DNA from: Balanoglossus misakiensis
Lineage: Eukaryota; Animalia; Hemichordata
NCBI GenBank assembly: GCA_040954595.2
Contig: CM082595.2
Coordinates: 1,986,635 to 2,050,634, forward strand
Length of the DNA stretch: 64,000 nt
Reading direction: 5' to 3'
Numbering within the stretch: the stretch's first letter is position 1; each line of letters starts with the position of its first letter. Of the stretch, positions 12,998 to 60,737 are shown one piece after another. The position numbers and the translations under genes were made by a program. A model generated the notes under the pieces. The model was not told the origin of the DNA. It did not search any database and saw nothing but the letters and a program-made list of their open reading frames with translations.

Positions 12998-15900
12998 ATG
13001 GCGGCTACCATGCGAAATAAACTATTTCTCTGTTTTACAGTAATTTTATCTAAATTCTTGTTCAGTAACGCTCTTTATGCTGACCAAGTGGGGAAATTTG
13101 ACTGGTAAGTAAGTGTTTACAAATCTCGAACTGCTTAAATTAGCTGTGTTAAGGTCACAGGACGGTGGCTGAGGTATATCGATCGTGGTAATTAACACCA
13201 TGCATGGCCCCCAAGCCTCAGTGGCTCACAGCAACCCACCTGTATCCAGACAAAGAAACATAATTCACACCTTTCGGTGTTTTGCATAATGCACCATTCC
13301 GAGGTTAGAGTTGACCAATAGGACACGGTGGCCTATTGGTCTAATTCCACGCCTACATATCTCCAAGAATTGTAGTGGTTGCTTTCGCTTCCTGACAGTG
13401 TCCGCGACCCTATTATTGACTCTACTACCACACATGGTGATTGGCTCAATGACAGGGTCAGAGGTCCAGGGTTTACATAAAAATGAAGGCGTAAATATGA
13501 TTGAAGCCCCTTTCACCACCATGGTTTGGTCCAAATCCATAATTTTCTGTGGTTACTTTGGACCTCTAATACATGGAGATGGGGTGAAAGCCTAGGGGTT
13601 TAAAGGCCCTAAGGGTTATACTAAATCTATCAGAAAATCTTAAATGTCAGAGGAATAAACTCATCTGATACATCCTTGTATGGCATTGTAAATTTACGTT
13701 ATTGTAATAAATTTATTTTTTATTATTAAATTGACACATTTTCCCAGAGTGTATCAAAATCTGAAACATTGTGTGATATGTCTTGGTAAATTAAAGCCTC
13801 ACGAGCTGCAACTTGATAAAAAATGTAAGCTTTATATAATCTCGGATATATGCTTTTATTCTGTCTATTAAAATTATATTGCCTGATAGTATGTCAAGAA
13901 AACTTATTTATGACAAAATGGGTAGAAAAATTAAAAAAAATATCAATACAGCAAAAATTCCTGCAATGAAAAATATCTTCAGTACGTACAGAGAAATTAG
14001 CTAAATATTTTATATGTAATATCTCTAGGAGACGTCAATTCATCGGTAAATCCACCTTTCTGAAATTCGACCAAACACCATCAGGGAGTGGACGCAGACT
14101 ACTAGTGGCCACAGAATCCAATGTATTAGCATCAGTGAATGCAAGGACTGGAGAAATTGTATGGCGACAGATTTTTCAAAGTGGAGATCTTGGCCACATT
14201 GATGCGATGGTCCATAAAGATAATGGTAAGTCAAAATACATACTATTAAACAGGACATTTTCGCAAACAAAAAATCATGATATTGCCCTCGCTAGCTACT
14301 GGAAGTCCCCTGAACTGTAACTATTTCCTTCACAGTATTTGTGACGGTTTCTGGATATGGAAAGTATCTTCGGTCATGGGATGCAGCAACTGGATACTTG
14401 ATGTGGGAAGAAGTTACAGACAATAGAATTGAGGAACAGGCAAGGTAGGGAATTTTCAAGAAGATATGAGCGTGATTTAAAAACAATTTAAAACTGTTTA
14501 CTAGAAAATTTTCATTTGTGGAACTGCTTGGCCAATAACTACCATTCTCTTCTCAATTTCCGGTCACCATCACTGCTTTTCAAGCAAACATATTCAAGTT
14601 TTCTTTTAGCAAAAGTGCTTGTCTGACCCAACCAGCATGGGGAGAACCCTGGTCAGGTCATGTTCTGTCGGGAAATGACAATGACTAATTGATGTTTTTG
14701 TTTACAGGAAATCAGTTGCTGTTTATTCTAACAAAGATCACATTGCTGTGTTGACATCAAACAATGTCTTTCTCCATTCCGTCAAAGATGGTTCTCAACT
14801 CTGGGCAAATCAACTGCCAAACAGGTAATTAAAGATAGAAAATAACCTGCACATTAAGTTCGTTGTAATTTACAATGGCAATTTCAAAATTAGCAAATAA
14901 ACAAGAAAACATTATTAGACATAACGATTACAAATGTTGGTTCTACCATGAATGAGATTATTGTCTTTCTTTTTTCAAGACATTATCTAATGTCATCTCC
15001 TTCATGATGTTGTTTTATATTACAGTGACTCTGTCAAGTATCAATGGGTTCATGGTTTGGATAAAACCCTGTTCGTGGTTGGTCTAGTGGAGAATTCACA
15101 CTTTTCTGTTGTTAGTTATCATCTTGATAAAGAGGGAGAACAGATCTCACAGGTTGGTTCAACTTCCATAAACACAAATCAATATTTTAATATTACGGCT
15201 GTTGCAATTTAAGGGCGATGATTGCTTTAAGGTCATTTAATCGAAGTACTTCCTTTGCCATCCTCACACCTTGCTACCTATATTGAAACATCACCATAAT
15301 GAAAGAACTGAGTGTGTGTTGAATTGCCAACAAGCTCTACACTGCTTTTACTGTCTTTCACAGAAACCATTACCAGCTGCCTGGGCTTCAGCCTCCAGTA
15401 TATCCTGTATTGTAGTCGGCATGACACATCTAGTGTGTATAGAGTCTCTTACAAATTCTCTCCACTCAGTGGCTTTGGAGGATGGTACTGCTTTCCACAA
15501 CACTCCAGTTATAGTAAGTAATATCCTCTCACCGCAATGGTTCAGTCCATACCCATTGTTTTCTATGGCAAGGTTGGACCTCTAAAGAGGGAACTGGGGG
15601 TGAAAGTGTTAAAATTACATGAGACATTTTCAAGCAATAAACCCTGTTGTATGTAGGACATTGCTGTCACTCGACCATGATGTACCGGTATATTGTGTGA
15701 CTGAATTTTGAGATCAAATGATGTTTTATTTTCAGGCTCTTGGTTTGCAAGGTTCCAGCATTAAACAACCCAGTCTCAAAGCTTTATTTCCTACAAGATC
15801 AGAGTTTATAATCCAGTTGAATAATGAGCATGCTGCCTTGGTGAAACTGGATGGTGGAAGTATAAAACTAATCCATGATTTGCCCAAGGTTAGTTCAGTT

Positions 15901-18900
15901 TGGTTTTTAATGAAATCGTGAAAGTCACATAGCTGTGAGGTATTCTTGTATGTTGTTGGCAAAAGTTTGTATTATTGAGAATATTTTTGACAAAAACACT
16001 GCCCAGAAACTCCATGGTTTTGTGTAATATTTAATCACTGTATGTATTTTTTTCACTTCTGTTCAAAGACTCTTGTCACCAGTTTTGAATCCACCCCACA
16101 CCAAGATATCATTGTCACTGTGGAACGGAAAACAAATATAGTGAGTATATTTCAAATAGTTTACATTTTACATTCAGTGAAACATGACTACATTATGTGG
16201 ATTTAAGGATGTATGCACAGAACATAAATGGACAATGTCATCATTTTTGTAAGTGTTTTCTTTGATCTTTGCAGGTTTACATTATCAGCTGTATCGATGC
16301 CAAGACAGGATCTAAGATTAAAGACACCAAACAGATAGTAACCATGCCACAACATACTGGCCAACCAACTCAGGTAAGAAAAATGGTCATACCCCATATC
16401 TCATCACATTTCTCGTCTTTGTGTCAGGAGTTCTATGCAAGCAGAGCTTCAGATATCAAATATTTTAAAGCTTAAAATATAAATTTTCACTAGAGATATT
16501 TATATGTAGGCTTCCCTGTTCATGTTCTACTCTATACACATAAAGCAATGTAGCAAAACTTCTTCCAATCTCATTATTTTCAACAGATGGGTGTACACTT
16601 CTTCTCCAAGAAAGAGTCCCAGCTGGGTTACCGAGTAATACTTCAGACAGAAGACTATGCAATGTCTTTTATACAACAACCAGGTAAGATACACACAACG
16701 GTCTTTTCACAAGTTAACAATATGTCACAAATATGTCTGTGGGAATACTATACTATTGAAAGTCTCACACACGAAAGAATAAACAGAAAAACATTTCAGA
16801 GCATATTCAGTTAACTGAGATGATTATTGTGCCAACCATTTCAGGGAAAGTACTATGGACAAGAGAAGAAGCATTATCAACAATCTTATCAGTTGAGATG
16901 GTGGATCTTCCTGTAACAGACACTGAAGCAAAGTTTGAGGATGAGTTTGGCACTCAACAAGGGGGTAAGTCAAAGACACCAATCAACCGATTTCACTTTT
17001 GTATATGTCAAACTATTATGTATTTAGAAGGAAAAATACATCTGGAAATTATGTATTTTGTGTCTTGTTACTAAAAATGAAGCATTATTCTTTTGCAGAA
17101 GATGTATTCAGCATGTTTTCCAGGAGATTGACTACTCAATTTGCACAGCTAAAAGTAAGTACATTTTATCATGAAAATTTTTTGTCCAGTGCTATTTCAT
17201 TAGCTCCGTCATCTGCTGTCTTCCATTCTGCGTGCGTAAACTCTTGTCTTTTTCTCTGAAACCAGTCTGGGTTTTTTTTGTGATTCCAGGGATATGTGAT
17301 GTCATTGAAGAGACGAATGAGACATGGACATCATCATGAACACCTGACTGTGGAAGATCTCAAACCTGACAAAAACAATAATGGCAATGATGAAGATGAT
17401 GACGATGATGATGACTACCTACGAAGAGATCAGTTCAGTTTGCATAAAATGATTGTAATCATCACAGAGGCTGGAAAGGTCAGTGTTCCTTTCATGAAAG
17501 ACTGTCTTTGGCTTGCATTTTCCATTTTAAAATGTGTTTTTAATATTCATTGTCTTTGTTACTACTTGCAGTTGTACGGTATGGACACTGAGGATGGTAG
17601 TCTCATCTGGCGACATTTCTTGCCACAGATGTCATTCTTTGAGAGGAATGGCAAACGCTCACTACCGATGTTTGTGCAGAGAACCACAGCTCATTTCCCA
17701 CACCCTCCACAAGTTGTCATTGTTGGCAAAGACAGGGTCAGTTTGTGTAAAGCCCCTTATGAGCTGCCTCATTTCACTTATTTATTTTCCACAATAAAAT
17801 ACCTCAAATCTTCTCCCTATCCTTTAAAATCCTCCCCATTAAACCATATTACTTTTATTTGCTTCAGTTTGTCATCTCTTGGCGACGCACACCACGATAG
17901 TTGTGTATTGTTTGTATGGAGGTATCTTTAATGCTTAGGCGGGATAGGTTTCTGCCCTCTTGCAAACCTGATATGCTGATACAGCAATACTATGTGCCAC
18001 TAATAATGCCTTGGTGTTTCATTGCAGGATTCTGATCACACCAGACTCCATACATTCAATCCTATTACGGGTAAACCCAGCAATCCCAGCTCCCCTCATG
18101 GAAGTCTCTTAGAATTCCAGCTGCAACAAGTTACGATGTTGCCAGTTGTGGATCATGAATTCCTCAAGATCATACTTCTCCTAGACAGTCAACAAAAGGT
18201 AGGTACCTTGTGATAGCGTTAATCCTTTCACCCCCGGTTCCCTCTAGAGAGGTCCAACCTTACCATAGAAAGCAATGGGTTTGGACTGAACCATGGTGTT
18301 GAAAGGGGTAATGTAGCAGATCATGAGCATGAGATGTGTTATACAGTAGGAATGTAAAACTATACTGCTAGGCTACTCATTACTGCCATACAAATATCAC
18401 CAATGCAGTATGCCCTCTCTGCCCATATGATGCGCCACTGACTCAACAAACTCACTGGTGACTCAAGAAAATTATCCACACTACATGCAAAGGTATAGGG
18501 CTGACTCAGAGAACTTTTTAAAAATCCTCAAATTGACTCAGAGCTGTTAAAAGTTATGTTTGTTAGAGGGCACACTGTACCCATGTCATTGAAATGAAAT
18601 AAAATCAAATATCACTTCTTTGTTCATAGGTACACGTCTTACCTGGAGAAAGCCAATCTGTACTTGGTGAGATACTGCCTTCAACATATATGTTCACTGT
18701 CAACAGTACAGACGGAAGGATTGCAGGACATGCCCTGATGGAAACAGCTAACAAGGAAATAGTCGCAGAGACTGTATGGAATGTACAACTCCCTGATGAT
18801 CAAGTCATCACCAACGTGGTTGCTAAGAGACCTACAGGTGACTATTCTCTTTTTCTCCATAAAACATCAAGATTTTTTTAGGCTCTTAATTCATTTCAGA

Positions 18901-22109: not shown

Positions 22110-25100
22110 TCATGAAGGAAATCGGTCGCTGTGAGAAACAAATTCTTCATCATTCTCGTCATATATATCATAAAACGTATCATCATTATCAGAATCACTG
22201 TCGTAGATGCCTGAACCTTCAATAGCTTGCCGAACCTAATAAATAAAAAAAATAAACCATGTATTATCGTTCATGCACTTCAGATGATGTATTTTGCCAT
22301 AAGTTAATATCACTGATATTTCCTAAAATATTTTAGACTAGTCACTCTCTCGATCACCTTACAGTATTCATAAATAAACTTTGAACAACTCATGAAGCAC
22401 AATGCCTACCTGTTCTAGGCCTACAATGCCAACCAAACTACCCTTGTTGGTCACATATGCTTTGTTTATACCAAGCAGGCTAAACAAAGTATGAATCTGC
22501 AAAAAAATAAAAGATTAACATTAATCCGGGCTAACACAAGATCTTGTGAAAGCAGAAAAGCCTTTGTTATTAATTATGTATAAGATAGGTAGCCAGGTAA
22601 ATTCCCTAAAATCATGGCCATACAAAAAATACCTTATGTAATGATGTCTTCTCAACAATATACAACGGAGCAGGATCTATTATACAGGGGTCAAAGTTCA
22701 CCCTATTCTTCAGTTTGGCACTTTCCCATTGCAGTTGCTGTGAAACATAAATGTCTTAATTAAGCATCCAAAATTGCAAAAAAAAGGGGGGGGGGAGAAA
22801 AATGACTTCACTTTGTGTAGAGATTTTGGCAGCATTGTTCCAATCAAACTTAATATGCTAGATAGAAATATTCTCCAGGAGTGATGGTCAGTAATTCAGT
22901 TAAATAACTTTTTTGAAACAAAATCACAACTTGTTTGATCACATGAAAGTAGCAGCATTGAGTGCTTATACGTGAGATAATGTCTTAGATTATCTAATTT
23001 TGAATCTTGCAATAATTGTTTTATACAAACCTCTTCTGGATTCAAGTCAACAAATCCACGATCATCCTAGAAAGTGAAAAAAAGCAGTTTTTGTGATACT
23101 CCAATCCAAACAACCATAATGTATAAATTTCAATAGAGCTGATAAACAGCTCTCTTCTAATGTACACAGATTTCCTCGATTTGAGTGCATAAAACTCGTG
23201 ATCATAGAGGTAAGATTGAAATGTTACTTACTTTTGAGGAACCAAAACTGTACATACTTTCGTCTGTCGAGAATTCATTGGAAGGGAGGAAGAAAGAGCA
23301 ATCAAACAGTTGGATAAGATTGGTTTCAGTTATCGCTATGAAATTCAGGTATTGTTATATGTTTGTATAAAGGAAAATGAAGGAATAACATACCTTTAGG
23401 GAAAATCTGTTGGCTTTTCAACGAGGACCTTGGTGAACTGGCAACCCTGGGAGATGATTTCTCTTCTACTCGAGACTATTTGCAAGAATAAATGTTAAAG
23501 AAGTGATGAAAGGTATGAAAGCTTAAAGCACTACAGTGAGTGTGGTCGACCTTTTACCCAGAATGCAATTATTATATGTTTTGACCCCCTAGCATGAAGT
23601 GAAAATCTCCACGTAGGAACTTGGAGTACCAGAAGCTGGCCTTCCAACTTTGTTATCAAATTTATGGAGTCTCAGGTGTTCATGGTCCCAATGCTTGTCT
23701 ATATTTTTACAGCTACCTTGAAAGACCCTGTAGTTTCAATGGAAATTTGCAACATCTTTAGTTGGTGCTGCACCTAAGAACATATGGTGTAAAGCACATG
23801 CAATTATGACTGCAGCTTACTTCGCTCTTTCCTGACTTGTCATCAAAGTGCACAGCAACATCTTTGGTCTCACGAGATCCCTTGCGTACAGGAATGGTTC
23901 CTGCTGACGATTTCCTCAAAGCTTCTTTTGTCCTGGCACTTTTACCCATGTGTTGTTCCACCAGGAATTCTAACTCTGATCGAGACACTACTCCATATAA
24001 AGTTTTTTTGTCTGCACAATAAACAAAAATAAGGGGTAAGAATTTTTGCTTTTATTTTAGCGGAAAATAGTGAAAATAAAGTTCTAGTGAAAATTAAGTA
24101 TTCTACAGTAACCCATACAGAAACTCTCCTGTGAAGAATTTGAGGCGTGAAGATGCTTATAGCTAGCTTACCACTGTTGTCCAGTAGAGGATAATTCCTG
24201 TGATAAGTTTGTGATAATACGTACTTCAAGTCCATGTAGGTGAACTCATATGCAATGTAATTGATCTTAGTTGTCATAATATCTTCTGCTAAGATATTAT
24301 GTGTTCTGTAATAGAAGCAGCAGATGGTTTAGTTTTTGCAATTGCCAAAGTAACTTAGCTGTACAATGATAAAGTTGAAGTTCCACCAATGATTGAATCA
24401 TAAAACTGTTTAAGATATGATACTTAGGAAATCGGTGCTGAATCGTTTTGATATCTGTCCTGTATACATACCTTCCCTCGCCTACAGCGATGTCTGGTAG
24501 ATACGGCAGTTTCTTGAGCTGGATGATACTATTGAAAATAGACGGCTGCAGTAACTGGCTGATGGCATTAGCAATTAATACAGCAACCTGCAAATGTATA
24601 CAAACATGAAACGATTCCCACTGGCTGGCCAATATGTGACAGTCTGTTTTTTAACATATTGGGCAATTGAAATGCCTCTACAATGTTAACATTAGTGCTT
24701 AGGTTTGATTTTATTTGGGCCAATAATTTTAATATTTCTGTATCCTCCACCAAGGTGTATAATCTGCTAACCACATGCATGATTATTCAACCCTCATACA
24801 CTTACCATGACAGGCAGTATATGTGTTAACTGCCCGGTCATCTCAGCTACAATTACTGATGTGGATACAGTTTGAGTCACAGCCCCAGATAGAGCAGCAG
24901 CACCTGCAATGAAATCATACATTGTTTGTGTTTACCCTTTCTCCGCTATGGTCCAGTCCAAATGCATTGTTTTCTATGGTAAGCTTGGACCTCTATAGAG
25001 GGAACTGGGGGTGAAAGGGTTAAACTGTAAAACAACATGTTGTTAAATATAGTAAGATTCAACATAAGCACAAGATAGAGTACCATTCATGCAGGCTTAT

Positions 25101-28100
25101 AGTTAGGTCGGTTCCGGCACTACAAACTTGTAGATGCACAGCGAATGATCTTAAAGTTGTGGTGAGGGAAAAGATGTTTGTGATTCACAGATTTGACTCA
25201 CCTACCACTGCATACCCTCCAGGTATAATGGTGGCATGTACATCACCGTGCCAAAAACCTTGAGGAACCCAAGCTACCATACCTTCTCCAATGATTCGAC
25301 CAAAAGCTGCACCAACGATGAATACAGGCATAAAAACACCATGTGCCACAGGCATAGTGATTGAAACAGCTGTCATCCAAAACTAGGGAAAAGTATCGGA
25401 AAACTTGACAGTTATTGCTCCATGATTTGAAAGTAGCTTTGTTTGTTCTGCTATGGTTTGGCCCAAGTCCATTCTTCTCATTGGGAGTGCAGGAACTTAA
25501 TAATTTTATAGAGGAAAAATGGGGATGAAAGGGTTAATATCATGCTCTTTTGATAATGAGAACTTCAAGATATGAGTGACTATAAAAATGATGAGGCAGA
25601 ACGCAAAGTCACTCTATAGGGACTACATGCTTTCCTTTGGAAAAAGAATTCCACACTTACTGTCATCAACACGTACAGCCCAAGTGACAGAAATATTAGA
25701 CCATGGTTTCCCAACCAATATCGAGCATAGGTAGCCTCAGCTATATCTTCTTCAGAAGCGCCGACCCATGTCTCGTTGCTGAATAAGGAGGTCAGCACTT
25801 TCCCTGGGGTTAACTGTGATGAAGAACATTTTAATAGATTGGCATAAATGCATATAATTCATACTTTTATTGTTACTGTTGCACAGGGATAGTGAGTCAT
25901 TTTTGATATAAAAGTTACATAGAGCATGTCATGTTCTTACCTCTCCAGCCATGTATTGTCCAAATCCAAGAGGAAACGTAAATGTTGATATGACTATTGT
26001 GATCGTCACTGGATAAATATAGCGACTACAAACAGAAATACGTAACTGTTAGAATTAATATTGAAATACATGTGTATGACTAAATTAGCAATGAAGTTTC
26101 TTGACATTTGGTGCAGTAGTGACTAAAAAGGGCACCTTTTATATTTCTAGACCTGTCTAATATTAGATGGCTTTTTTCTGATCATCAGTATAATTGAGAA
26201 ATTAACCTTTTTTGCAGTATTCTCTTCAAAAGAGTCTTCTTTCTATTAAATTGGACTGTTCTCCTATGCATGTAGGTGAAGAGAGCCCCACCAAAACCAG
26301 TAACAACACTGCAAAGGAGAATATCATCATAAATGTGAACTGAATATGCCCCTGTTGTATGTTGTGTGCATGCTTTCTATGTTAAAATTCATCATGATTC
26401 TTGGTAGTCAAAAAAGAAACTTACCCAATCAATGCGAAAACAATAACTTCCAAAACATCATAAGGGAACTGTATCCGGAAGGTTGTCTGGTACAATGCAG
26501 TGATTGTTTCTGAAATCATTAGAATATTGAAATTCTGAGTACAGCAAATGAGCAAGAAATGAAATCCATTTTGCAATGAGCAATGAAAATGCAGAGCTAA
26601 TAGACCAGCCTTTACCTTCTTTTTCTCCCCAAACAGCCAATAATCTGAAAACCAAAGCTGCACATGTCGCAGCAAAGAATCCTCGCCAATAATTGCGCAC
26701 GGCAAAATATGCTGTGGTTACTTCTATGCTGAATAGAAGGCCTCCTATCGGTGCTGAAAAGGTGCAGGCAACACCGACAGCACAAGCGGCTGCTAACATA
26801 TCGTAGTTGTGATATTCATTCTGTCGATGAAAGCAGAGAAATTCTGTGACAATAGGCCGAGGATCGTCTTATGCAGATATGCGTAATTTCATGTGAAGAA
26901 ACATTATTACATGACATCCAATCCAAATTATCTGCAAATTTTGCATTGTATACTCCCTACCACAAAAATTCCAGTCAGCTTAGCCATCCATCGATTAAGT
27001 ATTGCAGCTACCATGCTAGCGATATGCACAAAAGGACCCTAGTTAAAGACAGAAATACAAAACCACATTAAAATGAATTGCTATCTTTGAAAATGTTCAT
27101 GTTCATGCTTGGTGTATGCACCCTGAATTTTAGCAGTGTTGGGTAAAGTATCAGCACAATGATTTTTAATTTCATAGTTATATCATGAACACGGACAACA
27201 TATGATTTATAGAAAAAGCAAACTTACAACTTTCCCAAGTGGTAAACTACTCCCAAGCGAACAAGCCAAACCAACAACTTTGGAGACTAAAGTCCGTAAT
27301 GATAAGTATTCCTTTAGGACCACACCTCTCAAAATTGTCTTCAATTCTGGAATTCCGGAACCTGCAGGTGTGAAATCCATAACAAGTCTTTGAACCAAGA
27401 ATATTTCATATTGAAACATAATTGTTATATTATATACAGTAAAACCTTTTCCTGTACTACCTTTGACAAGAACCACACGTAAAAGTTTCATCAAAGAATT
27501 GTTCTAGCATTCTTACCAACTCCATTAGGTTCAACGTAGTAGGTGAACACAGCAGAAAACAGTATAAGCCCAGTTGGGTACAAAACCCAAACAAGATATT
27601 GTGGAAATGGTTGACCGTCCAAGGCATGGAAGAAAAACACTTGGCCTGTACAGAAATCAAACTGTGTGTTATGAAATTGCACATTCCCTATCAAAGCAAG
27701 ACCTGGTGATATATATTATAAAGTGACAATATTGATCATTTTGATATTTTTGAGCGAGCTGGTAGTTGACCCACCAATTATATGTAAACAAATTCTTCCA
27801 TAGTAACATTGCGTGAGTAAACATAGCTTTTATATAGTTGCATGGTGTAATTCAGTGGTAATTAATTATAAGTCAAGTGCCTGGGTAATAAATGAAATAT
27901 GGCCGGTAACATATGTGACACATATATACCCAGTAAACTTTATAAATTTAGCGTTTGAACGTACCTGTCTGAAATCAGTGGTAATTAATTATAACGCAAA
28001 ATGCCTGGGTTATAAATTAATATAGTGGGCAACATATTTGATACACATAGTCCCAGTAAACTTAAATTTAGCATAAATTAAACTTACCTTTCTGAAATAA

Positions 28101-28617
28101 AGCAATACAATAATCAATACCAAATGACAACAGTGCCATCAATATACCAAGAAGAGTTAAGAACAGATAATCATTGCCAATACTCTTCTGCTTAAGAACT
28201 TCATTTCGAATAGACTGCAAAGTATCTGTAACAGTAATTCAAGATGTGATTTCACAGACAAAATGCAATAATTCCATAGACAAACAGATTATATCATTCA
28301 TACAGTGAAATGAGTGAGAGGTTTGCTTGTTTACAAACAAGAAAATAAGGTGTATCTCGTATGATACTAAGATATGGAGTTCTTAACAAATATAACACTG
28401 TAATTTCTGTTTTAATCAAGCTATGAAGTGAAAAGATCAGCCTACATTTGCATTTTTCGAGAAATGTTTCTGTCGTGGGTTCATTTTCTCTGACAATGTC
28501 ACTATCCTTTCGCCGTTGCCAGTCATGATGCCTTTGTCTTTCATCATGTTCTCTCTTCAGTCTGACTGCTTCCTCCTTCGCGAAGCGGGCCAGATCTTTG
28601 CGATACTCGCCATACAT
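22110..28617 (-). CDS. CLC chloride channel of the ClC-1/ClC-2/ClC-K branch (ClC-2-like backbone) with atypical pore residues
   Basis: About 20 exons encode [36 protein letters not shown]|[68 protein letters not shown]1 (AEDIM..) and CBS2 ([25 protein letters not shown]). Stop at 22110-22112. A candidate upstream exon 30960-30914 would add MLMHENT (ATG 30934). Confidence 0.95.
24931..25023. mobile_element. TTAA-MITE copy (reverse orientation) in a CLC intron
   Basis: tttaccctttctcc...cattgttttctatggtaag...ggaactgggggtgaaagggttaa. A more decayed copy lies at ~25445-25537. Confidence 0.75.
27851..28100. repeat. ~125-bp tandem duplication covering a CLC exon end and its splice donor
   Basis: tcagtggtaattaattataa...gcctgggt...cccagtaaactt occurs twice; the copies end aacgtacctgtctgaaat and aacttacctttctgaaat. 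Confidence 0.75.
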
Positions 28618-29275: not shown

Positions 29276-31384
29276 GATTCAGGCCAGAATTAGTTTCCCA
29301 ATAACTAAATTACAACATGGTGACCACCCTTTAGGGATCTTATGTCAACCACGGTTATCTTGACAACATTCTGTTCAGAATGTGTCTGTTTGTTTGGTGT
29401 CGTGTGTGGCAAGTAACCGTGGTGATGTTTAGCTTTCTCAACTGTATGTGGAGATGAGAGTTAAGCCTGGGTTCAATTTGATGCTTTCGACTGCATGTAC
29501 AGATGTGTTAATCGACACCTGTGTAACCATTAACTCTTCAATAGACGACCAATTTGTACAACCTGAAAAAGAATCAGTGTATGTACATGTACTACAGGTA
29601 ACAAAATAACTGAGAACTACTAACCAAGGTTGGTTGGTAACCAAACTCTGCTCCGAGAGATTGTTTGTCACACATTGTGTTCAGTGGATAGGATATTCTA
29701 CTTTGCTGAATACGGTGTGCGATCAGTGAATTATACGAACACGCGTGTAGTCAACTGATAAGGTGTCATCTATACAAACACTGATAACAAAAATTGACTG
29801 CTTAATGATTTCAATGAATTAGATAGCCAGTGTGTATACTGAGGCCTTATTTGAGGGCAGTGCAAACATTCCTTGCATGACCTCATATAGGACATGCCTA
29901 TTGCTAGATTATAAGGCTAATGTTCTTGTATTTTAACACAAATTATTGTTAGTTTGAATCGAACATGACACGTAAGTAGTAGACAAATGTGAGCTAAATA
30001 AATTGCCATAGTTCCTTTTTGGAAATACAAACAGATGTCTGTGAATAAAATGTGATTATAAAGAGTATGTTCCTTTTCGCAAAATGATGGAATTTTCAAA
30101 CGCATAGCTACAACAATGTTGATTAACTATTGCTACGTTCTGTTGGATTATCTATATGTTAAAGTTTAAACTCCGTATCAAAGGACACTCGTGTTATTGA
30201 TGTGTTTCGACAACAGTAGTCTGTTGAACTCTGAACGCGCTGGTCAAGTACTAATAATTGTCTAAACCAACATGTACGGAATTTGCTTAACAATTGTGGT
30301 ACCAGCCACATTACATTACCGTGACAATAGACCCCCATTTTCATATTCAAATATAGCATATTTTATTAAGAGACAAATAATTACCATATCTATGTAATTG
30401 TATTATATTAATAGCCGAGTAATTTATATACATTTGTAGATGTGAAACAAAAATGCCAAGCTTATGATATTTCATGACTTTTCTTAATGATATACAATGT
30501 ATATAAAATAGAGTTGGTCATAGTGAAACGTACTGGCAAACTCGATAAACAAAATAATATTTTACAACAGTAACATAGAAAATGATTATCTGATATGTAT
30601 ATTTTCTAATTTGTCAAGCAAGTTATATTTTGTTATCAAAAATTTCTAATCCCCCCCCCCCCTCCTGGGCAACATAGTTTTGTACAAGAGTTCCCAAAAT
30701 AGACAAAAAACTAAGATTTTTACAATGTCTGTAATTTCATGAAGTTTAAGGAACATTTTGATATCACCAATTAAGATTAGCATATTTATCGTGAGACTCT
30801 TAGAAAAAATGTTAAGGTTTTACCACAGAAGACCGGCAAAAAGAATTGGTACAAGTTGTTCATATGACGAGACTATCACGATAAAAACAAAAGTAGTACA
30901 TTTATGGACCTACCGTATTTTCATGCATTAACATTGTTGAAAACTTGAAACTTTCTTGATCTGCAGCAATAAAATGTAAAATTCATTTCCATCTACAGTA
31001 TACAACTATAGACAACTATCAACCAAGTATTGTGAAATAAGTCCTATTGTCGTTTACATATAGTGAACCAAGCGTACCCATTGGGGTTAAAACCTGCAGG
31101 TTTCAACTTTGTTACTAGATTTTATGGGTAAAGTAGTGTCACGTGGTTCCAGATGAAACAAGCAAAGGTTACTCATTAATGAAAAGACATTGGTCGCAGA
31201 CAAATAGTTTTTTTTTCTGTGTTTTACCATTTTGGTAATTAACTGTATTTTGTATGTATCTGTTGATCCTAATCTAATCTATATTTTACCATTTTGGCAT
31301 TTAAACTCATGCATACTTTACGCCAATGATCTGACATGCGAAGGGTAGTGTACATGTATAGCATCTTATACTCTACTCTTCTCT

Positions 31385-34924: not shown

Positions 34925-36890
34925 AAAAACACTTAGAAATTTTTCAGGCTTTACTCTATGCTTATTAAAAACACTTAGAAATTTTTCAGGCTTCACTCTA
35001 TACTTATTAAAAACACTTAGAAATTTTTTAGGCTTCACTCTATACTTAGACATTAAAAACACTTAGAAATTTTTCAGGCTTTACTCTCTACTTTGACATT
35101 AAAAACACTTAGAAATTTTTCAGGCTTTACTCTATGCTTTCACATTAAGAAAAACACTTAGAAATTTTTCAGGCTTTACTCTATACTTTCACATTAAGTA
35201 AAACACTTAGAAATTTTTCAGGCTTTACTCTATACTTTGACATTAGGAAAAACACTTAGAAATTTTTCAGGCTTCACTCTATACTGAAACATTAAAAACA
35301 CTTAGAAATTTTTCAGGCTTTACTCTCTACTTTGACATTAAAAACACTTAGAAATTTTTCAGGCTTTACTCTCTACTTTGACATTAAAAACACTTAGAAA
35401 TTTTTCAGGCTTCACTCTATACTGAAACATTAAAAACACTTAGAAATTTTTCAGGCTTTACTCTCTACTTTGACATTAAAAACACTTAGAAATTTTTCAG
35501 GCTTTACTCTCTACTTTGACATTAAAAACACTTAGAAATTTTTCAGGCTTCACTCTATACTGAAACATTAAAAACACTTAGAAATTTTTCAGGCTTCACT
35601 CTATACTTAGACATTAAAAACACTTAGAAATTTTTCAGGCTTTACTCTCTACTTTGACATTAAAAACACTTAGAAATTTTTCAGGCTTCACTCTATACTG
35701 AAACATTAAAAACACTTAGAAATTTTTCAGGCTTCACTCTATACTGAAACATTAAAAACACTTAGAAATTTTTCAGGCTTTACTCTATACTTTGACATTA
35801 AAAACACTTAGAAATTTTTCAGGCTTTACTCTATACTTTCGAATTAGAAAAACTTAGAAATTGTTCAGGCTTTACTCTATACTTTGACTTTAGGAAAAAC
35901 ACTTAGAAATTTTTCAGGCTGTACTCTATACTTTGATATTAAAAACACTTAGAAATTTTTCAGGCTTTACTCTATGCTTTCACATTAAGAAAAACACTTA
36001 GAAATTTTTCAGGCTTTACTCTATACTTTCACATTAAGTAAAACACTTAGAAATTTTTCAGGCTTTACTCTATACTTTGACATTAGGAAAAACACTTAGA
36101 AATTTTTCAGGCTTCACTCTATACTGAAACATTAAAAACACTTAGAAATTTTTCAGGCTTTACTCTCTACTTTGACATTAAAAACACTTAGAAATTTTTC
36201 AGGCTTTACTCTCTACTTTGACATTAAAAACACTTAGAAATTTTTCAGGCTTCACTCTATACTGAAACATTAAAAACACTTAGAAATTTTTCAGGCTTTA
36301 CTCTCTACTTTGACATTAAAAACACTTAGAAATTTTTCAGGCTTTACTCTCTACTTTGACATTAAAAACACTTAGAAATTTTTCAGGCTTCACTCTATAC
36401 TGAAACATTAAAAACACTTAGAAATTTTTCAGGCTTCACTCTATACTTAGACATTAAAAACACTTAGAAATTTTTCAGGCTTTACTCTCTACTTTGACAT
36501 TAAAAACACTTAGAAATTTTTCAGGCTTCACTCTATACTGAAACATTAAAAACACTTAGAAATTTTTCAGGCTTCACTCTATACTGAAACATTAAAAACA
36601 CTTAGAAATTTTTCAGGCTTTACTCTATACTTTGACATTAAAAACACTTAGAAATTTTTCAGGCTTTACTCTATACTTTCGAATTAGAAAAACTTAGAAA
36701 TTGTTCAGGCTTTACTCTATACTTTGACTTTAGGAAAAACACTTAGAAATTTTTCAGGCTGTACTCTATACTTTGATATTAAAAACACTTAGAAATTTTT
36801 CAGGCTTTACTCTATGCTTTCACATTAAGAAAAACACTTAGAAAATTTTTCAGGCTTTACTCTTTACTTTGACATTAGGAAAAAACTTAG
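34925..36890. repeat. 46/49-bp satellite array (~42 units) with an 840-bp higher-order repeat
   Basis: Unit aaaaacacttagaaatttttcaggctttactctMtactttgacatt. 35101-35940 appears identical to 35941-36780 (18 monomers: 14x46 + 4x49). Confidence 0.97.
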
Positions 36891-37065
36891 AGTGTCCAAT
36901 TGAGATTGATTTGGTCTTACCTTAAGCTGTACTCTTGGATTTTTCAAACCATCATCTGAGAATTGAATTGATTTCACCTTGACTTTAATGCAACTCACTG
37001 CAATGCAAAGAACAAAATCAGGGTAAGTTTAACAACAATATTAATTACACAAAAAGAATGATAAC

Positions 37066-40000
37066 CGTCAAGAATTTGACAATTTTCATGAGCTATAACC
37101 CATGAAAAATGTCCCAAAATGACAAAATTACCAAAGTTGGCAAAGTCAAGTATTTGCCATTTGTGACAATTTTCATGAGCTATAACCCATGAAAAATGTC
37201 CCAAAATAACAAAATTACCATAGTTGGCAAAGTCAAGAATTTGCCAGTTTTGACGATTTTCATGAGCTATAACACATGAAAAATGTCGCAAAATGACAAA
37301 GTTGGCAAAGTCAAGAATTTGCCATTTTTGACGATTTTCATGAGCTATAACCCATGAAAAATGTCAAAATCACCAAAGTTGGCAAAGTCAAGAATTTGCC
37401 AGTTTTGATGATTTTCATGAGCTATAACCCATGAAAAATGTCCCAAAATGACAAAATTACCAAAGTTGGCAAAGTCAAGAATTTGCCATTTTTGACGATT
37501 TTCATGAACTATAACCCATGAAAATTGTCAAAATCAACAAAGTTTGCAAAGTCAAGAATATGCCATTTTTGATGATTTTCATGAGCTATAACCCATGAAA
37601 AATGTCCCAAAATGACAAAATTACCAAAGTTGGCAAAGTCAAGAATTTGCCATTTTTGACGATTTTCATGAACTATAACCCATGAAAATTGTCAAAATCA
37701 ACAAAGTTTGCAAAGTCAAGAATATGCCATTTTTGATTATTTTCATGAGCTATAACCCACGAAAAATGTCCCAGAATGACAAAATCACCAAAGTTGGCAA
37801 AGTCAAGAATTTGCCAGTTTTGACGATTTTCATGAGCTATAACCCATGAAAAATGTCAAAATCACCAAAGTTGGCAAAGTCAAGAATTTGCCATTTTTGA
37901 TGATTTTCATGAGCTATAACCCATGAAAAATGTCCCAAAATGACAAAATTACCAAAGTTGGCAAAGTCAAGAATTTGCCATTTTTGACGATTTTCATGAA
38001 CTATAACCCATGAAAATTGTCAAAATCAACAAAGTTTGCAAAGTCAAGAATATGCCATTTTTGATGATTTTCATGAGCTATAACCCATGAAAAATGTCCC
38101 AAAATGACAAAATTACCAAAGTTGGCAAAGTCAAGAATTTGCCATTTTTGACGATTTTCATGAACTATAACCCATGAAAATTGTCAAAATCAACAAAGTT
38201 TGCAAAGTCAAGAATATGCCATTTTTGATTATTTTCATGAGCTATAACCCACGAAAAATGTCCCAGAATGACAAAATCACCAAAGTTGGCAAAGTCAAGA
38301 ATTTGCCAGTTTTGACGATTTTCATGAGCTATAACCCATGAAAAATGTCCCAAAATGACGAAGTCACCAAAGTTGGCAAAGTCAAGAATTTGCCATTTTT
38401 GACGATTTTCATGAGCTATAACCCATGAAAAATGTCCCAAAATGACGAAGTCACCAAAGTTGGCAAAGTCAAGAATATGCCATTTTTGATGATTTTCATG
38501 AGCTATAACCCATGAAAAATGTCCCAGAATGACAAAATCACCAAAGTTGGCAAAGTCAAGAATTTGCCAGTTTTGACGATTTTCATGAGCTATAACCCAT
38601 GAAAAATGTCCCAAAATGACGAAGTCACCAAAGTTGGCAAAGTCAAGAATTTGCCAGTTTTGACGATTTTCATGAGCTATAACCCATGAAAAATGTCCCA
38701 AAATGACGAAGTCACCAAAGTTGGCAAAGTCAAGAATATGCCATTTTTGATGATTTTCATGAGCTATAACCCATGAAAAATGTCCCAAAATGACAAAATT
38801 ACCAAAGTTGGCAAAGTCAAGAATTTGCCATTTGTGACAATTTTCATGAGCTATAACCCATGAAAAATGTCCCAAAATGACAAAATTACCATAGTTGGCA
38901 AAGTCAAGAATTTGCCAGTTTTGACGATTTTCATGAACTATAACCCATGAAAATTGTCAAAATCAACAAAGTTTGCAAAGTCAAGAATATGCCATTTTTG
39001 ATTATTTTCATGAGCTATAACCCACGAAAAATGTCCCAGAATGACAAAATCACCAAAGTTGGCAAAGTCAAGAATTTGCCATTTGTGACAATTTTCATGA
39101 GCTATAACCCATGAAAAATGTCCCAAAATGACAAAATTACCATAGTTGGCAAAGTCAAGAATTTGCCAGTTTTGACGATTTTCATGAACTATAACCCATG
39201 AAAATTGTCAAAATCAACAAAGTTTGCAAAGTCAAGAATATGCCATTTTTGATTATTTTCATGAGCTATAACCCACGAAAAATGTCCCAGAATGACAAAA
39301 TCACCAAAGTTGGCAAAGTCAAGAATTTGCCAGTTTTGACGATTTTCATGAGCTATAACCCATGAAAAATGTCCCAAAATGACGAAGTCACCAAAGTTGG
39401 CAAAGTCAAGAATTTGCCATTTTTGACGATTTTCATGAGCTATAACCCATGAAAAATGTCCCAAAATGACGAAGTCACCAAAGTTGGCAAAGTCAAGAAT
39501 ATGCCATTTTTGATGATTTTCATGAGCTATAACCCATGAAAAATGTCCCAGAATGACAAAATCACCAAAGTTGGCAAAGTCAAGAATTTGCCAGTTTTGA
39601 CGATTTTCATGAGCTATAACCCATGAAAAATGTCCCAAAATGACGAAGTCACCAAAGTTGGCAAAGTCAAGAATTTGCCAGTTTTGACGATTTTCATGAG
39701 CTATAACCCATGAAAAATGTCCCAAAATGACGAAGTCACCAAAGTTGGCAAAGTCAAGAATATGCCATTTTTGATGATTTTCATGAGCTATAACCCATGA
39801 AAAATGTCCCAAAATGACAAAATTACCAAAGTTGGCAAAGTCAAGAATTTGCCATTTGTGACAATTTTCATGAGCTATAACCCATGAAAAATGTCCCAAA
39901 ATGACAAAATTACCATAGTTGGCAAAGTCAAGAATTTGCCAGTTTTGACGATTTTCATGAGCTATAACCAATGAAAAATCACCAAAGTTGGCAAAGTCAA

Positions 40001-40856
40001 GAATTTGCCAGTTTTGACGATTTTCATGAGCTATAACCCATGAAAAATGTCGCAAAATGACAAAGTTGGCAAAGTCAAGAATTTGCCATTTTTGACGATT
40101 TTCATGAGCTATAACCCATGAAAAATGTCAAAATCATCAAAGTTGGCAAAGTCAAGAATTTGCCAGTTTTGACGATTTTCATGAGCTATAACCCATGAAA
40201 AATGTCCCAGAATGACAAAATCACCAAAGTTGGCAAAGTCAAGAATTTGCCAGTTTTGACGATTTTCATGAGCTATAACCCATGAAAAATGTCCCAAAAT
40301 GACGAAGTCACCAAAGTTGGCAAAGTCAAGAATTTGCCATTTTTGACGATTTTCATGAGCTATAACCCATGAAAAAAGTCAAAATCACCAAAGTTTGCAA
40401 AGTCAAGAATATGCCATTTTTGATGATTTTCATGAGCTATAACCCACGAAAAATGTCCCAGAATGACAAAATCACCAAAGTTGGCAAAGTCAAGAATTTG
40501 CCAGTTTTGACGATTTTCATGAGCTATAACCCACGAAAAATGTCCCAGAATGACAAAATCACCAAAGTTGGCAAAGTCAAGAATTTGCCAGTTTTGACGA
40601 TTTTCATGAGCTATAACCCAAGAAAATTTTCATGAGCCATAACCCATGAAAAATGTCCCAAAATGACAAAGTCACCAAAGTTGGCAAAGTCAAGAATTTG
40701 CCAGTTTTGACGATTTTCATGAGCTATAACCCATGAAAAATGTCCCAAAATGACAAAATCACCAAAGTTGGCAAAGTCAAGAATTTGCCAGTTTTGAGGA
40801 TTTTCATGAGCTATAACCCATGAAAAAAGTCCCAAAATGACAACATCACCAAAATT
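37066..40856. repeat. 87/77-bp satellite array (~45 units), double-hairpin monomer; degenerate tail to ~41090
   Basis: Unit gttggcaaagtcaagaatttgccagttttgacgattttcatgagctataacccatgaaaaatgtcccaaaatgacaaaatcaccaaa; 77-bp variants lack 10 bp. Confidence 0.97.
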
Positions 40857-45024: not shown

Positions 45025-47059
45025 TTAAGAACGCAAAAGAAAAACACCGCCTATATTAGGTTTTCCAGCAGGCCCTGGCATAATTTTTGTGTTAATAGTT
45101 TGTATAAGCTTTCTCTTACATTCGTCATACTCGACATAATCAGACATATTGCCATGGAAGAAAATGTCACGTCCGACATACGTGATTTTACCTTGTGGTG
45201 ATTGAGTATATTTAACACAGTGACATAAATAATCTAAAAAAAAAGACAAGAAAAAGGTTAACTTACACGTGAAGAAAAGATTCATTTGAGTGAGCAGCCG
45301 TTGACCGCTGATGATATACATTCGGAAGAGAAAGAACGGAGCGTCTTGGAACACGATGTCGGACAGCAGAGCCAGAAAACCGAACTCCATGCCACGAATC
45401 CTCTTCTTTGTCGCAGCGTAGCTTTCAGTTCGTGGTTGTGATGACGACTGTTGCGAGTTGCTCGGCTGTGAACTTGACGCGACACTCGGCAGATGTTTGC
45501 CATCCTTCGTGCCTGATCGTTTATCTTCAAACCTACGAGGTTCATTATTGTCACTGTCCAACTCTTCGATGTCCATGACCTCAATGTTGCTGGTCTTCAA
45601 AGTCTTGTTGGACTCTCTCCCATCGCAATCTTTCAGAGACCTGTGATCTTTCACTTCCTTTCTGTCGTCAACTTCAACTTTTGGCCCTTTCCTCTTTTTT
45701 CCGCCCTCTTCCGAACTTGCTCCACATCCCTTGTCGCCAGGCAACTCCGACAAATCCTTCGTTCTTGCTCGGGCTTCTCTCGGTCTCCTTATAGCACCCT
45801 TGTCAGCATTTGAGGAAGACTCGTCCATAGCAACCGGCATGAGTGTAAATTTGAGCATGGCCCACGACCAGAGACTCAACACGGTATACAGCAATGCTCT
45901 GTTGTATTTGATGAGGTCGTAATTCATGACATCCATGAATTCTAAAATATCAGCCGCTGTTCCTGGAGAGAGAAAAGTGAAAAGTCCCATCGATAAATAG
46001 CTAAACTAAACACTTAGTACCATGATTAAATCTGCTTCCTGGGGTGTGTGCGGGCACAGACTGGCTCTTGTGTGTTATAACAGAAAGACGGACAAACAGT
46101 TTTCAGAAGTACCGACATGGAGTAGTTCTTGGTGTGAACATGATTGGACAGACATACAGGCAGGCAGGCAGACACACACACACACAGACTGACAGACAGA
46201 CAGAAGACAGACAAACAGCCTTTACTTACCAAGCAATACCAGGAGAAGAGTCGAGAGTTCATCTCTAGACATGCGGCCTTTCGGTAGAAGCCATCTTGCC
46301 AAGAGCAGAACACACGGCGTGAGTTGTTCTAAAGCCAGTGCCCAGCCATCATTCATCGTGTATCGCTGAAAATACACATCACTGTTATAAATTGGCATGT
46401 ATATAACCAACGCATGACGTTTTCTTTGGCTAGAAACGTCAGGCGAATTCCAATTCCATCATGTTTCAATTACACACAGCCCATGGGACTTTGAATCTCG
46501 ATCTTACAATGGATTTGCATTGAAAAGTCATACCTTAAAAAGAAGAAGAGAGCTGTTTCGCCGTGACTGGATGCAGTTTTCTCTCAAACCATCTTCCCTT
46601 TCCGCCATTCTCCGTTCGAACAGACTGGTTTCTATGATCCATATAGATGGTAAGACAGCTGTGAGATGTATCACCACACAAGCACAGATCCTGAACATCA
46701 ATACACAAAATGGAGATATTTTTTCAGGAAAGACAGTCATTTTCATCATTAATGTGATACGAACCTCGGGGACATATTTTCAGAAAAAAATGATATACCT
46801 CCGAACATTTCTATTCGTTGCTATCTTAAGGTGCGGAAGACAGGCAAGGTGTTCACCGATTTTTTTACCTATTCCAGTCTTTGCCTTCTCTTTTCACAAC
46901 CACTATCAGCCCTTCCACGAAGAACAAACCCAGGGATATGCAGAGGTACCAGACACGTGTATCGCTGCTAGTGCCCACAGCTCGCCAAACCGCCAACATC
47001 ATGTGCAGCGCAAGCAACAGGCGAGATGAGAACGTCATCAACTGCATCCACTTCCCCAT
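45025..47059 (-). CDS. TMEM26: TMEM26-like multi-pass membrane protein, 4 exons
   Basis: Exons ~47059-46869, ~46690-46534, ~46366-46229 and ~45962-45025 give SRLLLALH..VWR, VLPSIWIIE, LEQL..LLLARWLLPKGRMSRDELSTLLLV, GTAADILEF, LWSWAMLKF, QDAPFFLFRM and FFTCK, all TMEM26-family motifs. It may be a lineage paralogue rather than the orthologue. Confidence 0.85.
46145..46220. repeat. (GACA)n/(CA)n compound microsatellite in a TMEM26 intron
   Basis: gacagacatacaggcaggcaggcagacacacacacacacagactgacagacagacagaagacagac. Confidence 0.85.
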
Positions 47060-51051: not shown

Positions 51052-51705
51052 TCTCGACACCGCGAGTAGTCACTTGGCTGCAAGAGGGCGCTCGTTTCCA
51101 TCGATCTGGTGCACAGACTCGCATATTACACAAAATAAATTGCTTTAATTAGTTTAAAATACATGAAACTAGCCAAATCCAAATGAGAAATAGCAGGAGC
51201 AATTAACACATGTGGACTAGTGATTCTTTAGATATATACAATATACAATGACAGTGGACAGACATTGGGTAAAGGTGGCTTTATACCTTTAACTGGCTTT
51301 GGGGTAAAATAATACTTTATACTTTATAGTAGACCTAATAATCAATCAATAACTGATGAACTATTTAAAAAAAAACATCTCACCTCATTTGTGATTAGAC
51401 ATTCATTCGATAACTATCGACACGTTGATCGTGTATGGCATACAAGAACTTATGGACCAAATTATTCCCACGTGAACACTACCCAGAAAAATTTTAACTA
51501 CGCAATTTTAACACGTGACTGCGGTCGATATTGATATATTGCAACAGTTTGTCAACTTTGCAAGGCTTCTTTTGGTTGGTCAGCGAGTTTGCACAATTGT
51601 TCATTTCAGCGGGATGTTCATTTCACTAATATCCCAAGAGAAGGGCGCATCTTAATCCGTACCACGTACGTTGCAAAGTGTACTTTCTTTAAATTGAAGT
51701 TGAAC

Positions 51706-58559: not shown

Positions 58560-60737
<2,178 letters not shown>

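What the first reader, a model, noticed from the sequence alone, without database searches (positions are those of the whole stretch)
27222..27240. CLC channel with Val in place of the gating glutamate (GKVGP, the ClC-K signature)
Seen: the exon ends CTT GGG AAA GTT|gtaagt (GTT = 27230-27228) and the next exon begins ag|GGT CCT TTT GTG CAT, giving [14 protein letters not shown]. Established: ClC-0/1/2 and CLC exchangers carry GKEGP, whose Glu (E166 in ClC-0, E148 in EcClC) forms the fast gate; mammalian ClC-K channels have Val here and need barttin. The remaining exons I translated are intact and ClC-2-like, with GSGIP Ser and channel-type Val in FSIEVT. Inference: a largely ungated Cl- channel in an invertebrate, either convergent with ClC-K or evidence that the ClC-K state is older than thought.
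Basis: partly seen in the sequence, partly recalled or inferred. Interest (0 to 1): 0.88.

Follow-up and report, generated by a model that had tools for sequence, protein, structure and literature searches.

The report
Acorn-worm chloride channel lacking gating glutamate
This is an intact acorn-worm gene of the CLC chloride-channel family with valine in place of the glutamate that normally gates the pore, a change shared by three acorn-worm families that likely arose independently of the same change in the vertebrate kidney channel ClC-K, and the protein is predicted, not shown, to conduct chloride passively while keeping other gates.

Summary
GTT (27230-27228) ends an exon at a GT-AG junction, giving GKV|GP in an intact 822-residue ClC-2-like frame. 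A second haplotype also has it, and 37 of 39 listed exonic variants are silent. The Val is not private: Ptychodera (82% identical), Glandiceps (two copies) and Saccoglossus carry it, and two of these also keep a Glu-type copy. Trees pair the Val group with the acorn-worm Glu copy (93/74; 97/93) and ClC-K with vertebrate ClC-1/2 (99/97; 100/98). An exclusive Val+ClC-K clade is disfavoured but not rejected (AU p 0.11). ClC-K's Tyr425 and two-residue insertion are absent. So this is likely convergence, not an older ClC-K. Glu loss recurs: six changes on the tree, including amphipod, myriapod-like, annelid-like and nematode lineages. 'Largely ungated' goes too far: the N-terminal ball core and the common-gate Cys remain. 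No RNA or functional data were available. The scan earlier noted a Val-gate CLC on other DNA (Naegleria).

The parts
22110..28617 (-). Main coding span of the CLC gene: 21 exons (28617-28446, 28225-28088, 27645-27517, 27361-27228, 27038-26961, 26820-26616, 26509-26425, 26308-26207, 26025-25941, 25813-25661, 25382-25202, 24903-24806, 24587-24472, 24305-24172, 24011-23821, 23475-23394, 23263-23232, 23066-23031, 22737-22633, 22496-22410, 22235-22110), 822 aa, membrane domain plus two CBS domains
   Evidence: all 20 introns GT-AG, one terminal stop; 79% identical over 831 columns to Ptychodera flava XP_070561650 (P0227); only one CLC locus in the window.
27228..27230 (-). GTT, Val191, at the gating-glutamate position (E205 of ClC-2, V166 of ClC-K); last codon of the exon
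   Evidence: unchanged in a second haplotype
27039..27227 (-). 189-nt phase-0 intron between GKV and GP, consensus donor gtaagt
27357..27359 (-). Central serine of GSGIPE (Ser148), retained
26719..26721 (-). Val251 at the inner 'proton glutamate' position (SIEVT), the channel-type state
24531..24536 (-). TTC AAT: Phe538 in place of the central tyrosine (Y553 of ClC-2), followed by Asn in place of Asp
   Evidence: Same Phe in Ptychodera and both Glandiceps copies; Saccoglossus keeps Tyr. All 12 differences of the covering X1 contig lie elsewhere.
25332..25361 (-). Helix M-N segment: Ile435 and Val443 at the T475/G483 positions of ClC-1, Ala440 for a conserved Pro, GVFMP motif without ClC-K's Tyr425
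   Evidence: positions from PMC6019066
24845..24847 (-). Ala507 in place of the conserved Phe just before the helix-P Glu; Ala in all 5 acorn-worm Val-type proteins
28603..28617 (-). Core of a ClC-2-like N-terminal 'ball' hairpin (equivalents of M22, G24, Y26 kept)
   Evidence: role of these residues from PMC10942593 and PMC6794291
29625..29675 (-). Predicted first coding exon A (17 codons, ends in a GT donor); supplies the first half of the hairpin, with Pro at the Q19 position; matches P. flava isoform X1
30914..30934 (-). Predicted alternative first coding exon B (7 codons, donor gtaggt); lacks the first half of the hairpin; matches the start of P. flava isoform X2

Best explanation
[quoted passage not shown] Shown: the Val, the intact frame, purifying selection, the same Val in three acorn-worm families, a Glu-type sister copy in two of them, and Phe for the central Tyr in 4 of 5 Val-type proteins. 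Inferred history: one ClC-2-like gene duplicated in the hemichordate line; one copy kept Glu and evolved slowly (stem 0.11-0.13), the other took Val, Pro to Ala and Phe to Ala on a long stem (0.49-0.53); Tyr to Phe came later (Saccoglossus keeps Tyr), likely because the tyrosine's hydroxyl had lost its Glu partner. Inferred mechanism: no carboxylate competes with chloride at the outer and central sites, so each pore would be open with little voltage or proton dependence and no H+ coupling. Current would be set by the N-terminal ball (weakened by Pro at Q19, and halved in the isoform from first exon B) and by the common gate and CBS domains. Conductance may be modest, because Ile435 and Val443 are bulky at the inner constriction. 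A likely job is a background or epithelial chloride conductance beside the gated Glu copy; that step is a guess.
For: Sequence. Selection: 16 of 16 and 21 of 23 listed exonic differences are silent, against 23% expected for random changes. Spread: of 226 proteins have Val, 192 Glu and 27 no readable motif; five of the seven are acorn-worm records, from Ptychoderidae, Spengelidae and Harrimaniidae. Trees with the gate and Tyr columns removed: Val group 100/100; sister to the acorn-worm Glu copies at 93/74 (55 rows) and 97/93 (30 rows); ClC-K with ClC-1/2 at 99/97 and 100/98. A clade of Glu-type deuterostome proteins without the Val group and ClC-K is rejected (p 0.008). One clade of all 14 Val rows is rejected (p 1e-29). 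The two-residue insertion before LGKVGP is in 6 of 6 ClC-K rows and absent here; Tyr425 is in 6 of 6 ClC-K rows and 0 of 5 acorn-worm Val rows. Fold: best matches are human ClC-2 (model of the Ptychodera orthologue). Function by analogy: E166A/Q in ClC-0 removes voltage sensitivity and gives a very high open probability (PMC2234480); Glu and Tyr are energetically coupled in ClC-2 (PMC8222222); M22K, G24D and Y26N open ClC-2 (PMC6794291).
Against: The AU test does not reject an exclusive acorn-worm-Val + ClC-K clade (lnL lower by 18.8 and 17.9; p 0.112 and 0.109). The p 0.008 test was named after seeing the tree. The sister link to the Glu copy is starred only in the 30-row tree, from which I dropped 25 long or unnamed rows. 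Diagnostic columns are few (Val group with ClC-K only: 2, one being the gate itself; with the Glu copy only: 6; one column counts in both). There are no RNA or electrophysiology data. Tyr to Phe is mild in known channels: Y512F in ClC-0 keeps wild-type conductance and Y561F in ClC-2 still rectifies inward. In the E. coli exchanger, removing the Glu alone lowers chloride throughput about fourfold (PMC6019066), so loss of the Glu need not give large currents. The link between Glu loss and Tyr to Phe is seen in raw counts (6 of 19 against 4 Phe and 2 Ile of 87, Fisher p 0.007) but the tree-aware pair test had no power and gave median p 1.
Confidence: 0.7

Rival explanations
1. The gene is a true ClC-K orthologue: the Val paralogue split off before hemichordates and chordates parted and was lost elsewhere.
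For: Same GKVGP motif. An exclusive clade is not rejected (p 0.11). Both are long-stemmed groups. A gecko and a toad ClC-K-like protein also pair Val with Phe at the central Tyr.
Against: Best trees put ClC-K with ClC-1/2 at 99/97 and 100/98. The deuterostome-stem version is rejected (p 0.008). No Tyr425, no two-residue insertion, and a ClC-2-type N-terminal hairpin that the three ClC-K rows tested lack. It needs losses in echinoderms and amphioxus, where the records found are all Glu-type. Val arose separately in other phyla.
Confidence: 0.08
2. The protein is real and selected but does not form an open homodimeric pore; it conducts little on its own and acts as a partner that modifies the Glu-type copy in a heterodimer, or needs an unknown accessory subunit as human ClC-K does.
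For: Twenty sites conserved in Glu-type proteins are changed in all five Val-type proteins. Bulky Ile435/Val443 sit at the inner barrier (PMC6019066). ClC-1/ClC-2 heterodimers exist and human ClC-K needs barttin (PMC4188032). Two species have both copies.
Against: Pore residues (central Ser, both pore Phe, E202 equivalent, helix-P Glu) are kept. The Glu-type invertebrate proteins have the same bulky pair, so it is not a mark of this group. Rat ClC-K1 works without barttin. No Glu-type copy turned up for Saccoglossus among the best 120 hits.
Confidence: 0.15
3. The Val is an error, a wrong splice call, or a decaying copy.
For: No RNA evidence was obtained; all acorn-worm proteins used are database gene models.
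Against: Two base changes from Glu; the same codon in a second haplotype; Val in three other species; 37 of 39 listed exonic differences silent; intact 822-residue frame.
Confidence: 0.02

Closest known systems
Vertebrate ClC-2 (human, PDB 7XF5, 8TA3/8TA4)
   Same: Best solved-structure match by sequence (E 8e-233) and fold; 57-58% identity over the membrane domain to ray and gar ClC-2; central Ser, inner Val, common-gate Cys, R172 and R363 equivalents, N-terminal M22/G24/Y26, two CBS domains.
   Different: Val for E205, Phe for Y553, Pro for Q19, Tyr for Q153, Ala for a conserved Pro and for a helix-P Phe, bulky Ile/Val at the inner constriction. It is a co-orthologue of the whole ClC-1/2/K group, not of ClC-2 alone.
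Vertebrate ClC-K (ClC-Ka/Kb; PDB 5TQQ, 11AH)
   Same: Val at the gate (V166; PMC6019066); E261, D278 and H497 equivalents present, but these are also in ClC-2.
   Different: Only 41-47% identical; lacks Tyr425 and the two-residue insertion; keeps the ClC-2-type N-terminus; separate branch of the tree; barttin need untested.
Acorn-worm Val-type 'chloride channel protein 2-like' records (XP_070561650/1, XP_077980789, XP_077992850, XP_077868660)
   Same: Direct orthologues, 76-89% identical over the membrane domain, all GKVGP.
   Different: Named only as ClC-2-like in the databases; Saccoglossus keeps the Tyr. No paper on them was found.
Other animal CLCs without the gate Glu (Hyalella P0226; unnamed P0027 and P0243; nematode GKMGP proteins P0246, P0265, P0269)
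   Same: Same loss of the Glu in the ClC-1/2/K branch.
   Different: Each nests in its own phylum-level group, so each is a separate event; 48-53% identical for the three Val proteins; no functional data found.

Membership tests
CLC family | Voltage_CLC domain, three filter motifs, CBS pair, CLC fold | tested here: met
   Pfam PF00654 E 2e-71 for P0002 and 9e-16 for one window exon; motifs; Foldseek to ClC-2, TM up to 0.95 by target length
CLC channels (ClC-0/1/2/K branch) | Neutral residue at the inner proton-glutamate position; place in the ClC-1/2/K branch | tested here: met
   Val251; PDB bit scores 501-778 for ClC-1/2/K against at most 208 for exchangers
CLC channels (ClC-0/1/2/K branch) | Small polar residues at the T475 and G483 positions (PMC6019066) | tested here: not met
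   Ile435 and Val443. Glu-type acorn-worm, crinoid and amphioxus proteins are also Val/Ile here, so the rule may be a vertebrate one.
CLC channels (ClC-0/1/2/K branch) | Passive, uncoupled chloride conduction | not testable with these tools
   Needs expression and recording
ClC-2 | Gating glutamate (E205) | tested here: not met
   Val191
ClC-2 | Central tyrosine (Y553) | tested here: not met
   Phe538
ClC-2 | N-terminal ball hairpin (residues 14-28) | tested here: inconclusive
   T20, M22, G24, Y26 and the R363 partner are kept; Q19 is Pro and Q153 is Tyr. The Glu-type acorn-worm copies keep Q19.
ClC-K | Val at the gate (V166) | tested here: met
ClC-K | Tyr425 in GYFMP, proposed to flip the central Ser | tested here: not met
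   Val443; Tyr in 6 of 6 ClC-K rows, 0 of 5 acorn-worm Val rows; numbering checked on 5TQQ
ClC-K | Two-residue insertion before LGKVGP (seen here in the alignment, not taken from print) | tested here: not met
   Present in 6 of 6 ClC-K rows, absent in the window protein and P0002
ClC-K | Common descent with vertebrate ClC-K | tested here: inconclusive
   Not one clade in either best tree; AU p 0.112 and 0.109 for the exclusive clade; p 0.008 for the deuterostome-stem version
ClC-K | Ca2+-site residues E261 and D278, and H497 | tested here: inconclusive
   Present, but also in ClC-2 rows, so not diagnostic; E259 is Lys (PMC3514729)
ClC-K | Barttin dependence, or a barttin gene in the genome | not testable with these tools
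   No whole genome is held; no barttin search was run

The most novel reading that the evidence does not exclude
Acorn worms carry an old, selected CLC channel in which both leaves of the pore gate (Glu and central Tyr) were dismantled in steps, so that it is gated only by an N-terminal ball whose strength is switched by alternative first exons, and it works without barttin. With the other Val and Met lineages it would give a natural series for asking what gates a CLC pore that has no glutamate, a point left open for ClC-K.
Probability: 0.25. Interest if true: 0.7.

Novelty: new variant of a known kind. Interest (0 to 1): 0.42.

Why it matters
Reviews and structure papers present ClC-K as the one CLC channel without the gating glutamate (PMC10256776) and the central tyrosine as invariant (PMC6019066). 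This gene family breaks both statements and shows that the ClC-K solution arose more than once in animals. How ClC-K gates without the Glu was stated as unresolved (PMC4188032). An acorn-worm Val/Glu pair about 63% identical, with a Tyr-keeping Saccoglossus intermediate, is a ready comparison set that may not need barttin. The limits: Glu loss is recurrent rather than unique, Tyr to Phe is mild in known channels, and nothing is known of the gene's role in the animal.

Tried and rejected
No whole genome is held, so this animal's own Glu-type copy and barttin could not be sought; tblastn shows no second CLC in the window. No RNA holder was listed; this says nothing on expression. Run X3 laid nothing. 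Alternative splicing to Glu was sought and not found. RNA editing of GTT to a Glu codon is not possible by A-to-I or C-to-U (general knowledge). The region search meant as a census of Val-type proteins scored only 18 candidates, so it is no census. My first exon call stopped early at an inner GT and was corrected. The tree-aware test of Glu loss with Tyr to Phe had no power. The 'gating glutamate' in the C. elegans CLH-1 preprint legend appears to be the inner Glu/Val position, so it gives no precedent; I could not find in print which C. elegans CLH has Met. Jayaram 2008 is not held; I cite it only through PMC6019066. The structure model (mean pLDDT 73.9, about 40-47 at residues 155-172, which include GSGIP) is too weak to judge the Ser loop. 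The Atlas gave only generic CLC clusters. Inter-species dN/dS was not computed, as no orthologous DNA was at hand. Synteny with ClC-K was considered and dropped: both P. flava copies lie on a contig of the same length, 47,284,028, so chromosome-level linkage cannot tell them apart.

Full report
1. The observation. On the minus strand the exon 27361-27228 ends GGG AAA GTT before the donor gtaagt, and the next exon begins at 27038 with GGT CCT. This gives GKV|GP, with GTT at 27230-27228. The full model has 21 exons from 28617 to 22110, 20 GT-AG introns, 822 residues and one terminal stop. Two short upstream exons (29675-29625 and 30934-30914) match the two N-termini of the Ptychodera flava isoforms X1 and X2; these are predictions. 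The 189-nt intron holds no micro-exon or alternative site that gives Glu.

2. Is it real and selected? Three public runs were listed, all DNA contigs of one sample; none is RNA. In X1 and X2 a contig across the codon differs from the window at 27246 and 27258 but keeps GTT, so two haplotypes have it. This sample may be the one the window came from, so it is not fully independent. One search listed 40 differences (6 more not shown); 16 fell in exons and all 16 are silent. One search listed 40 (25 more not shown); 23 fell in exons, 21 silent and 2 not (T581S, V466F). Random changes would be silent 23% of the time.

3. What it is. The closest protein is P. flava XP_070561651, 82% identical over 673 columns, so the window most likely comes from a related ptychoderid acorn worm (inference). 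Of the 226 proteins returned, seven have Val at the gate, 192 Glu and 27 no readable motif. Five of the seven are acorn-worm records: P. flava, two of Glandiceps talaboti, and two models of what looks like one Saccoglossus kowalevskii gene. These species belong to three families. P. flava and Glandiceps also have a Glu-type copy, 63% identical to the window protein over the membrane domain. The other two Val proteins are from Hyalella (P0226) and an unnamed record (P0027).

4. How common is loss of the Glu? Among the best 150 of 9,734 hits in the 50%-identity library, 129 had a readable gate motif: 106 Glu, 12 Val, 8 Met, and one each of Ala, Leu and Gln. Ten of the 12 Val rows look like vertebrate ClC-K by motif, six of them named or placed by tree; one is an amoeba protein (Soliformovum) and one is unnamed (P0243). 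The three Met rows looked up are from nematodes.

5. Trees. I aligned 55 proteins and removed the gate, the central Tyr, its neighbour and the helix-P site (625 columns). In the careful tree the five acorn-worm Val proteins form a clade (100/100) whose sister is the acorn-worm Glu pair (93/74). ClC-K groups with vertebrate ClC-1 and ClC-2 (99/97). P0243 sits with Capitella (100/97), P0027 with a millipede (100/100), and Hyalella among arthropods (99/94). The gate needs six changes on this tree. A second tree without 25 long or unnamed rows gave 97/93 and 100/98 for the same two links. One clade of all 14 Val rows is rejected (p 1e-29). A Glu-type deuterostome clade that excludes both the Val group and ClC-K, as a deuterostome-stem duplication requires, is rejected (p 0.008; named after seeing the tree). 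Against my reading: the exclusive clade of acorn-worm Val plus ClC-K is 18-19 log units worse but not rejected (p 0.112; 0.109). No lamprey, hagfish, tunicate, pterobranch or identified cnidarian row was available.

6. ClC-K marks. ClC-K's Tyr425 is in 6 of 6 ClC-K rows and is Val or Ile in the five acorn-worm proteins (numbering checked on 5TQQ). A two-residue insertion before LGKVGP is in 6 of 6 ClC-K rows and absent here. The ClC-2-type N-terminal motif is present here and was not found in the three ClC-K rows tested. E261, D278 and H497 are present but shared with ClC-2.

7. The central tyrosine is Phe (24536-24534) in the window, P. flava and both Glandiceps copies; Saccoglossus keeps Tyr. 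[quoted passage not shown] It is not: Phe also occurs in a gecko and a toad ClC-K-like protein, in nematode Met types, and in some Glu types such as a Dreissena copy. Among representatives with both sites readable (106 of 150), Phe is in 6 of 19 non-Glu and 4 of 87 Glu proteins (2 more have Ile; Fisher p 0.007), but the tree-aware test had no power. Twenty sites conserved in Glu-type proteins are changed in all five Val proteins, among them Pro440 to Ala and Phe507 to Ala.

8. How it most likely works. Shown in other CLCs: neutralising the Glu of ClC-0 removes voltage sensitivity and gives a very high open probability (PMC2234480, passages); Glu and Tyr are coupled in ClC-2, and Tyr to Phe shifts activation by more than 50 mV but keeps inward rectification (PMC8222222, passages); an N-terminal hairpin blocks the ClC-2 pore through Q19-Q153 and T20-R363, and ClC-2 keeps some gating with its Glu neutralised (PMC10942593, passages); M22K, G24D and Y26N open ClC-2 (PMC6794291, passages); ClC-K still gates without the Glu, by a route not identified, and rat ClC-K1 works without barttin (PMC4188032, passages). 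Inferred for this protein: a passive chloride pore with no Glu gate and no H+ coupling (the inner position is Val), regulated by the ball, the common gate (its Cys is kept) and the CBS domains. The ball looks altered: M22, G24, Y26, T20 and R363 are kept, Q19 is Pro and Q153 is Tyr, while the Glu-type sister keeps Q19. First exon B would remove the first half of the hairpin. Conductance may be modest: Ile435 and Val443 match the bulky pattern that PMC6019066 assigns to transporters (section read), though invertebrate Glu-type proteins share it, and Glu removal alone slows the E. coli exchanger. None of this was measured.

9. Novelty. Ten paper searches found no paper on acorn-worm CLCs or on Val-gate CLCs in invertebrates; of these, addressed that directly, at the level of search listings. 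The library lacks most subscription journals, and I opened no supplements, where alignments could show these proteins. I read passages (not whole texts) of PMC6019066 (plus section 12), PMC4188032, PMC8222222, PMC3514729, PMC2234480, PMC7834019 and its preprint, PMC10942593, PMC10256776, PMC5196487, PMC7274781 and PMC6794291. The orthologues are in RefSeq under a plain ClC-2-like name. The scan earlier noted a Val-gate CLC in Naegleria (e1-676317); nothing earlier was found for this sequence or genome.

10. Verdict. A real, selected, family-wide variant of the ClC-1/2/K channel branch that works, by prediction, like ClC-K at the pore gate but is not shown to be a ClC-K and fails two ClC-K marks. 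New variant of a known kind; interest 0.42.

Noticed in passing
P0254 (gecko, XP_077169677) and P0271 (toad, A0A8C5LXH3): A second, deeply split ClC-K-like lineage in tetrapods, sister to the fish and mammal type ClC-K (100/100), with Val at the gate and Phe at the central Tyr, the same pair as here. It may be a little-noticed extra vertebrate paralogue.
   Followed up: partly
P0226 (Hyalella), P0027 and P0243 (unnamed Logan records): Three further, separate Glu-to-Val CLCs in an amphipod, a myriapod-like and an annelid-like animal. The two unnamed ones lie as full frames on 3.4 and 5.5 kb contigs, which suggests spliced transcripts (inference). Hyalella also has Thr for the Phe of GxFxP.
   Followed up: partly
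P0246, P0265, P0269 and five more representatives: Nematode CLC clade with Met at the gate (GKMGP), four of the eight with Phe at the central Tyr. No paper noting it was found.
   Followed up: partly
P0121 (Saccoglossus Val-type): GSGIPQ instead of GSGIPE and Asn at the K519 position; keeps the central Tyr.
   Followed up: no
P0022, P0026, P0033, P0060, P0064: Dreissena and Lineus ClC-2-like records; two Dreissena ones have Phe at the central Tyr with a normal Glu gate.
   Followed up: no
window 13970-17900 (+), 45025-46005 (-), 51535-52738 (+), 54266-55373 (-), 58521-60737 (+): Neighbouring genes by Pfam: EMC1, TMEM26, a TGF-beta family gene (weak hit), a RsmB/NOP2-type RNA methyltransferase and a leucine-rich-repeat protein that resembles LRRC47 (name recalled). 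From memory, human EMC1, LRRC47 and CLCNK all lie on 1p36; not checked and not diagnostic.
   Followed up: partly
window 34925-36891 and 37075-40853: Tandem arrays of a 46-bp unit (42 copies) and an 87-bp unit (over 34 copies) upstream of the gene; part of the 46-bp array appears twice almost letter for letter, which may be an assembly duplication.
   Followed up: no
window about 24950-25025, 25470-25520 and 26860-26950: Short intronic stretches with very high contig depth: dispersed repeats, probably small mobile elements.
   Followed up: no
window 61798-62708: Degenerate 60-bp repeat array with long open frames on both strands; probably a repetitive coding exon.
   Followed up: no
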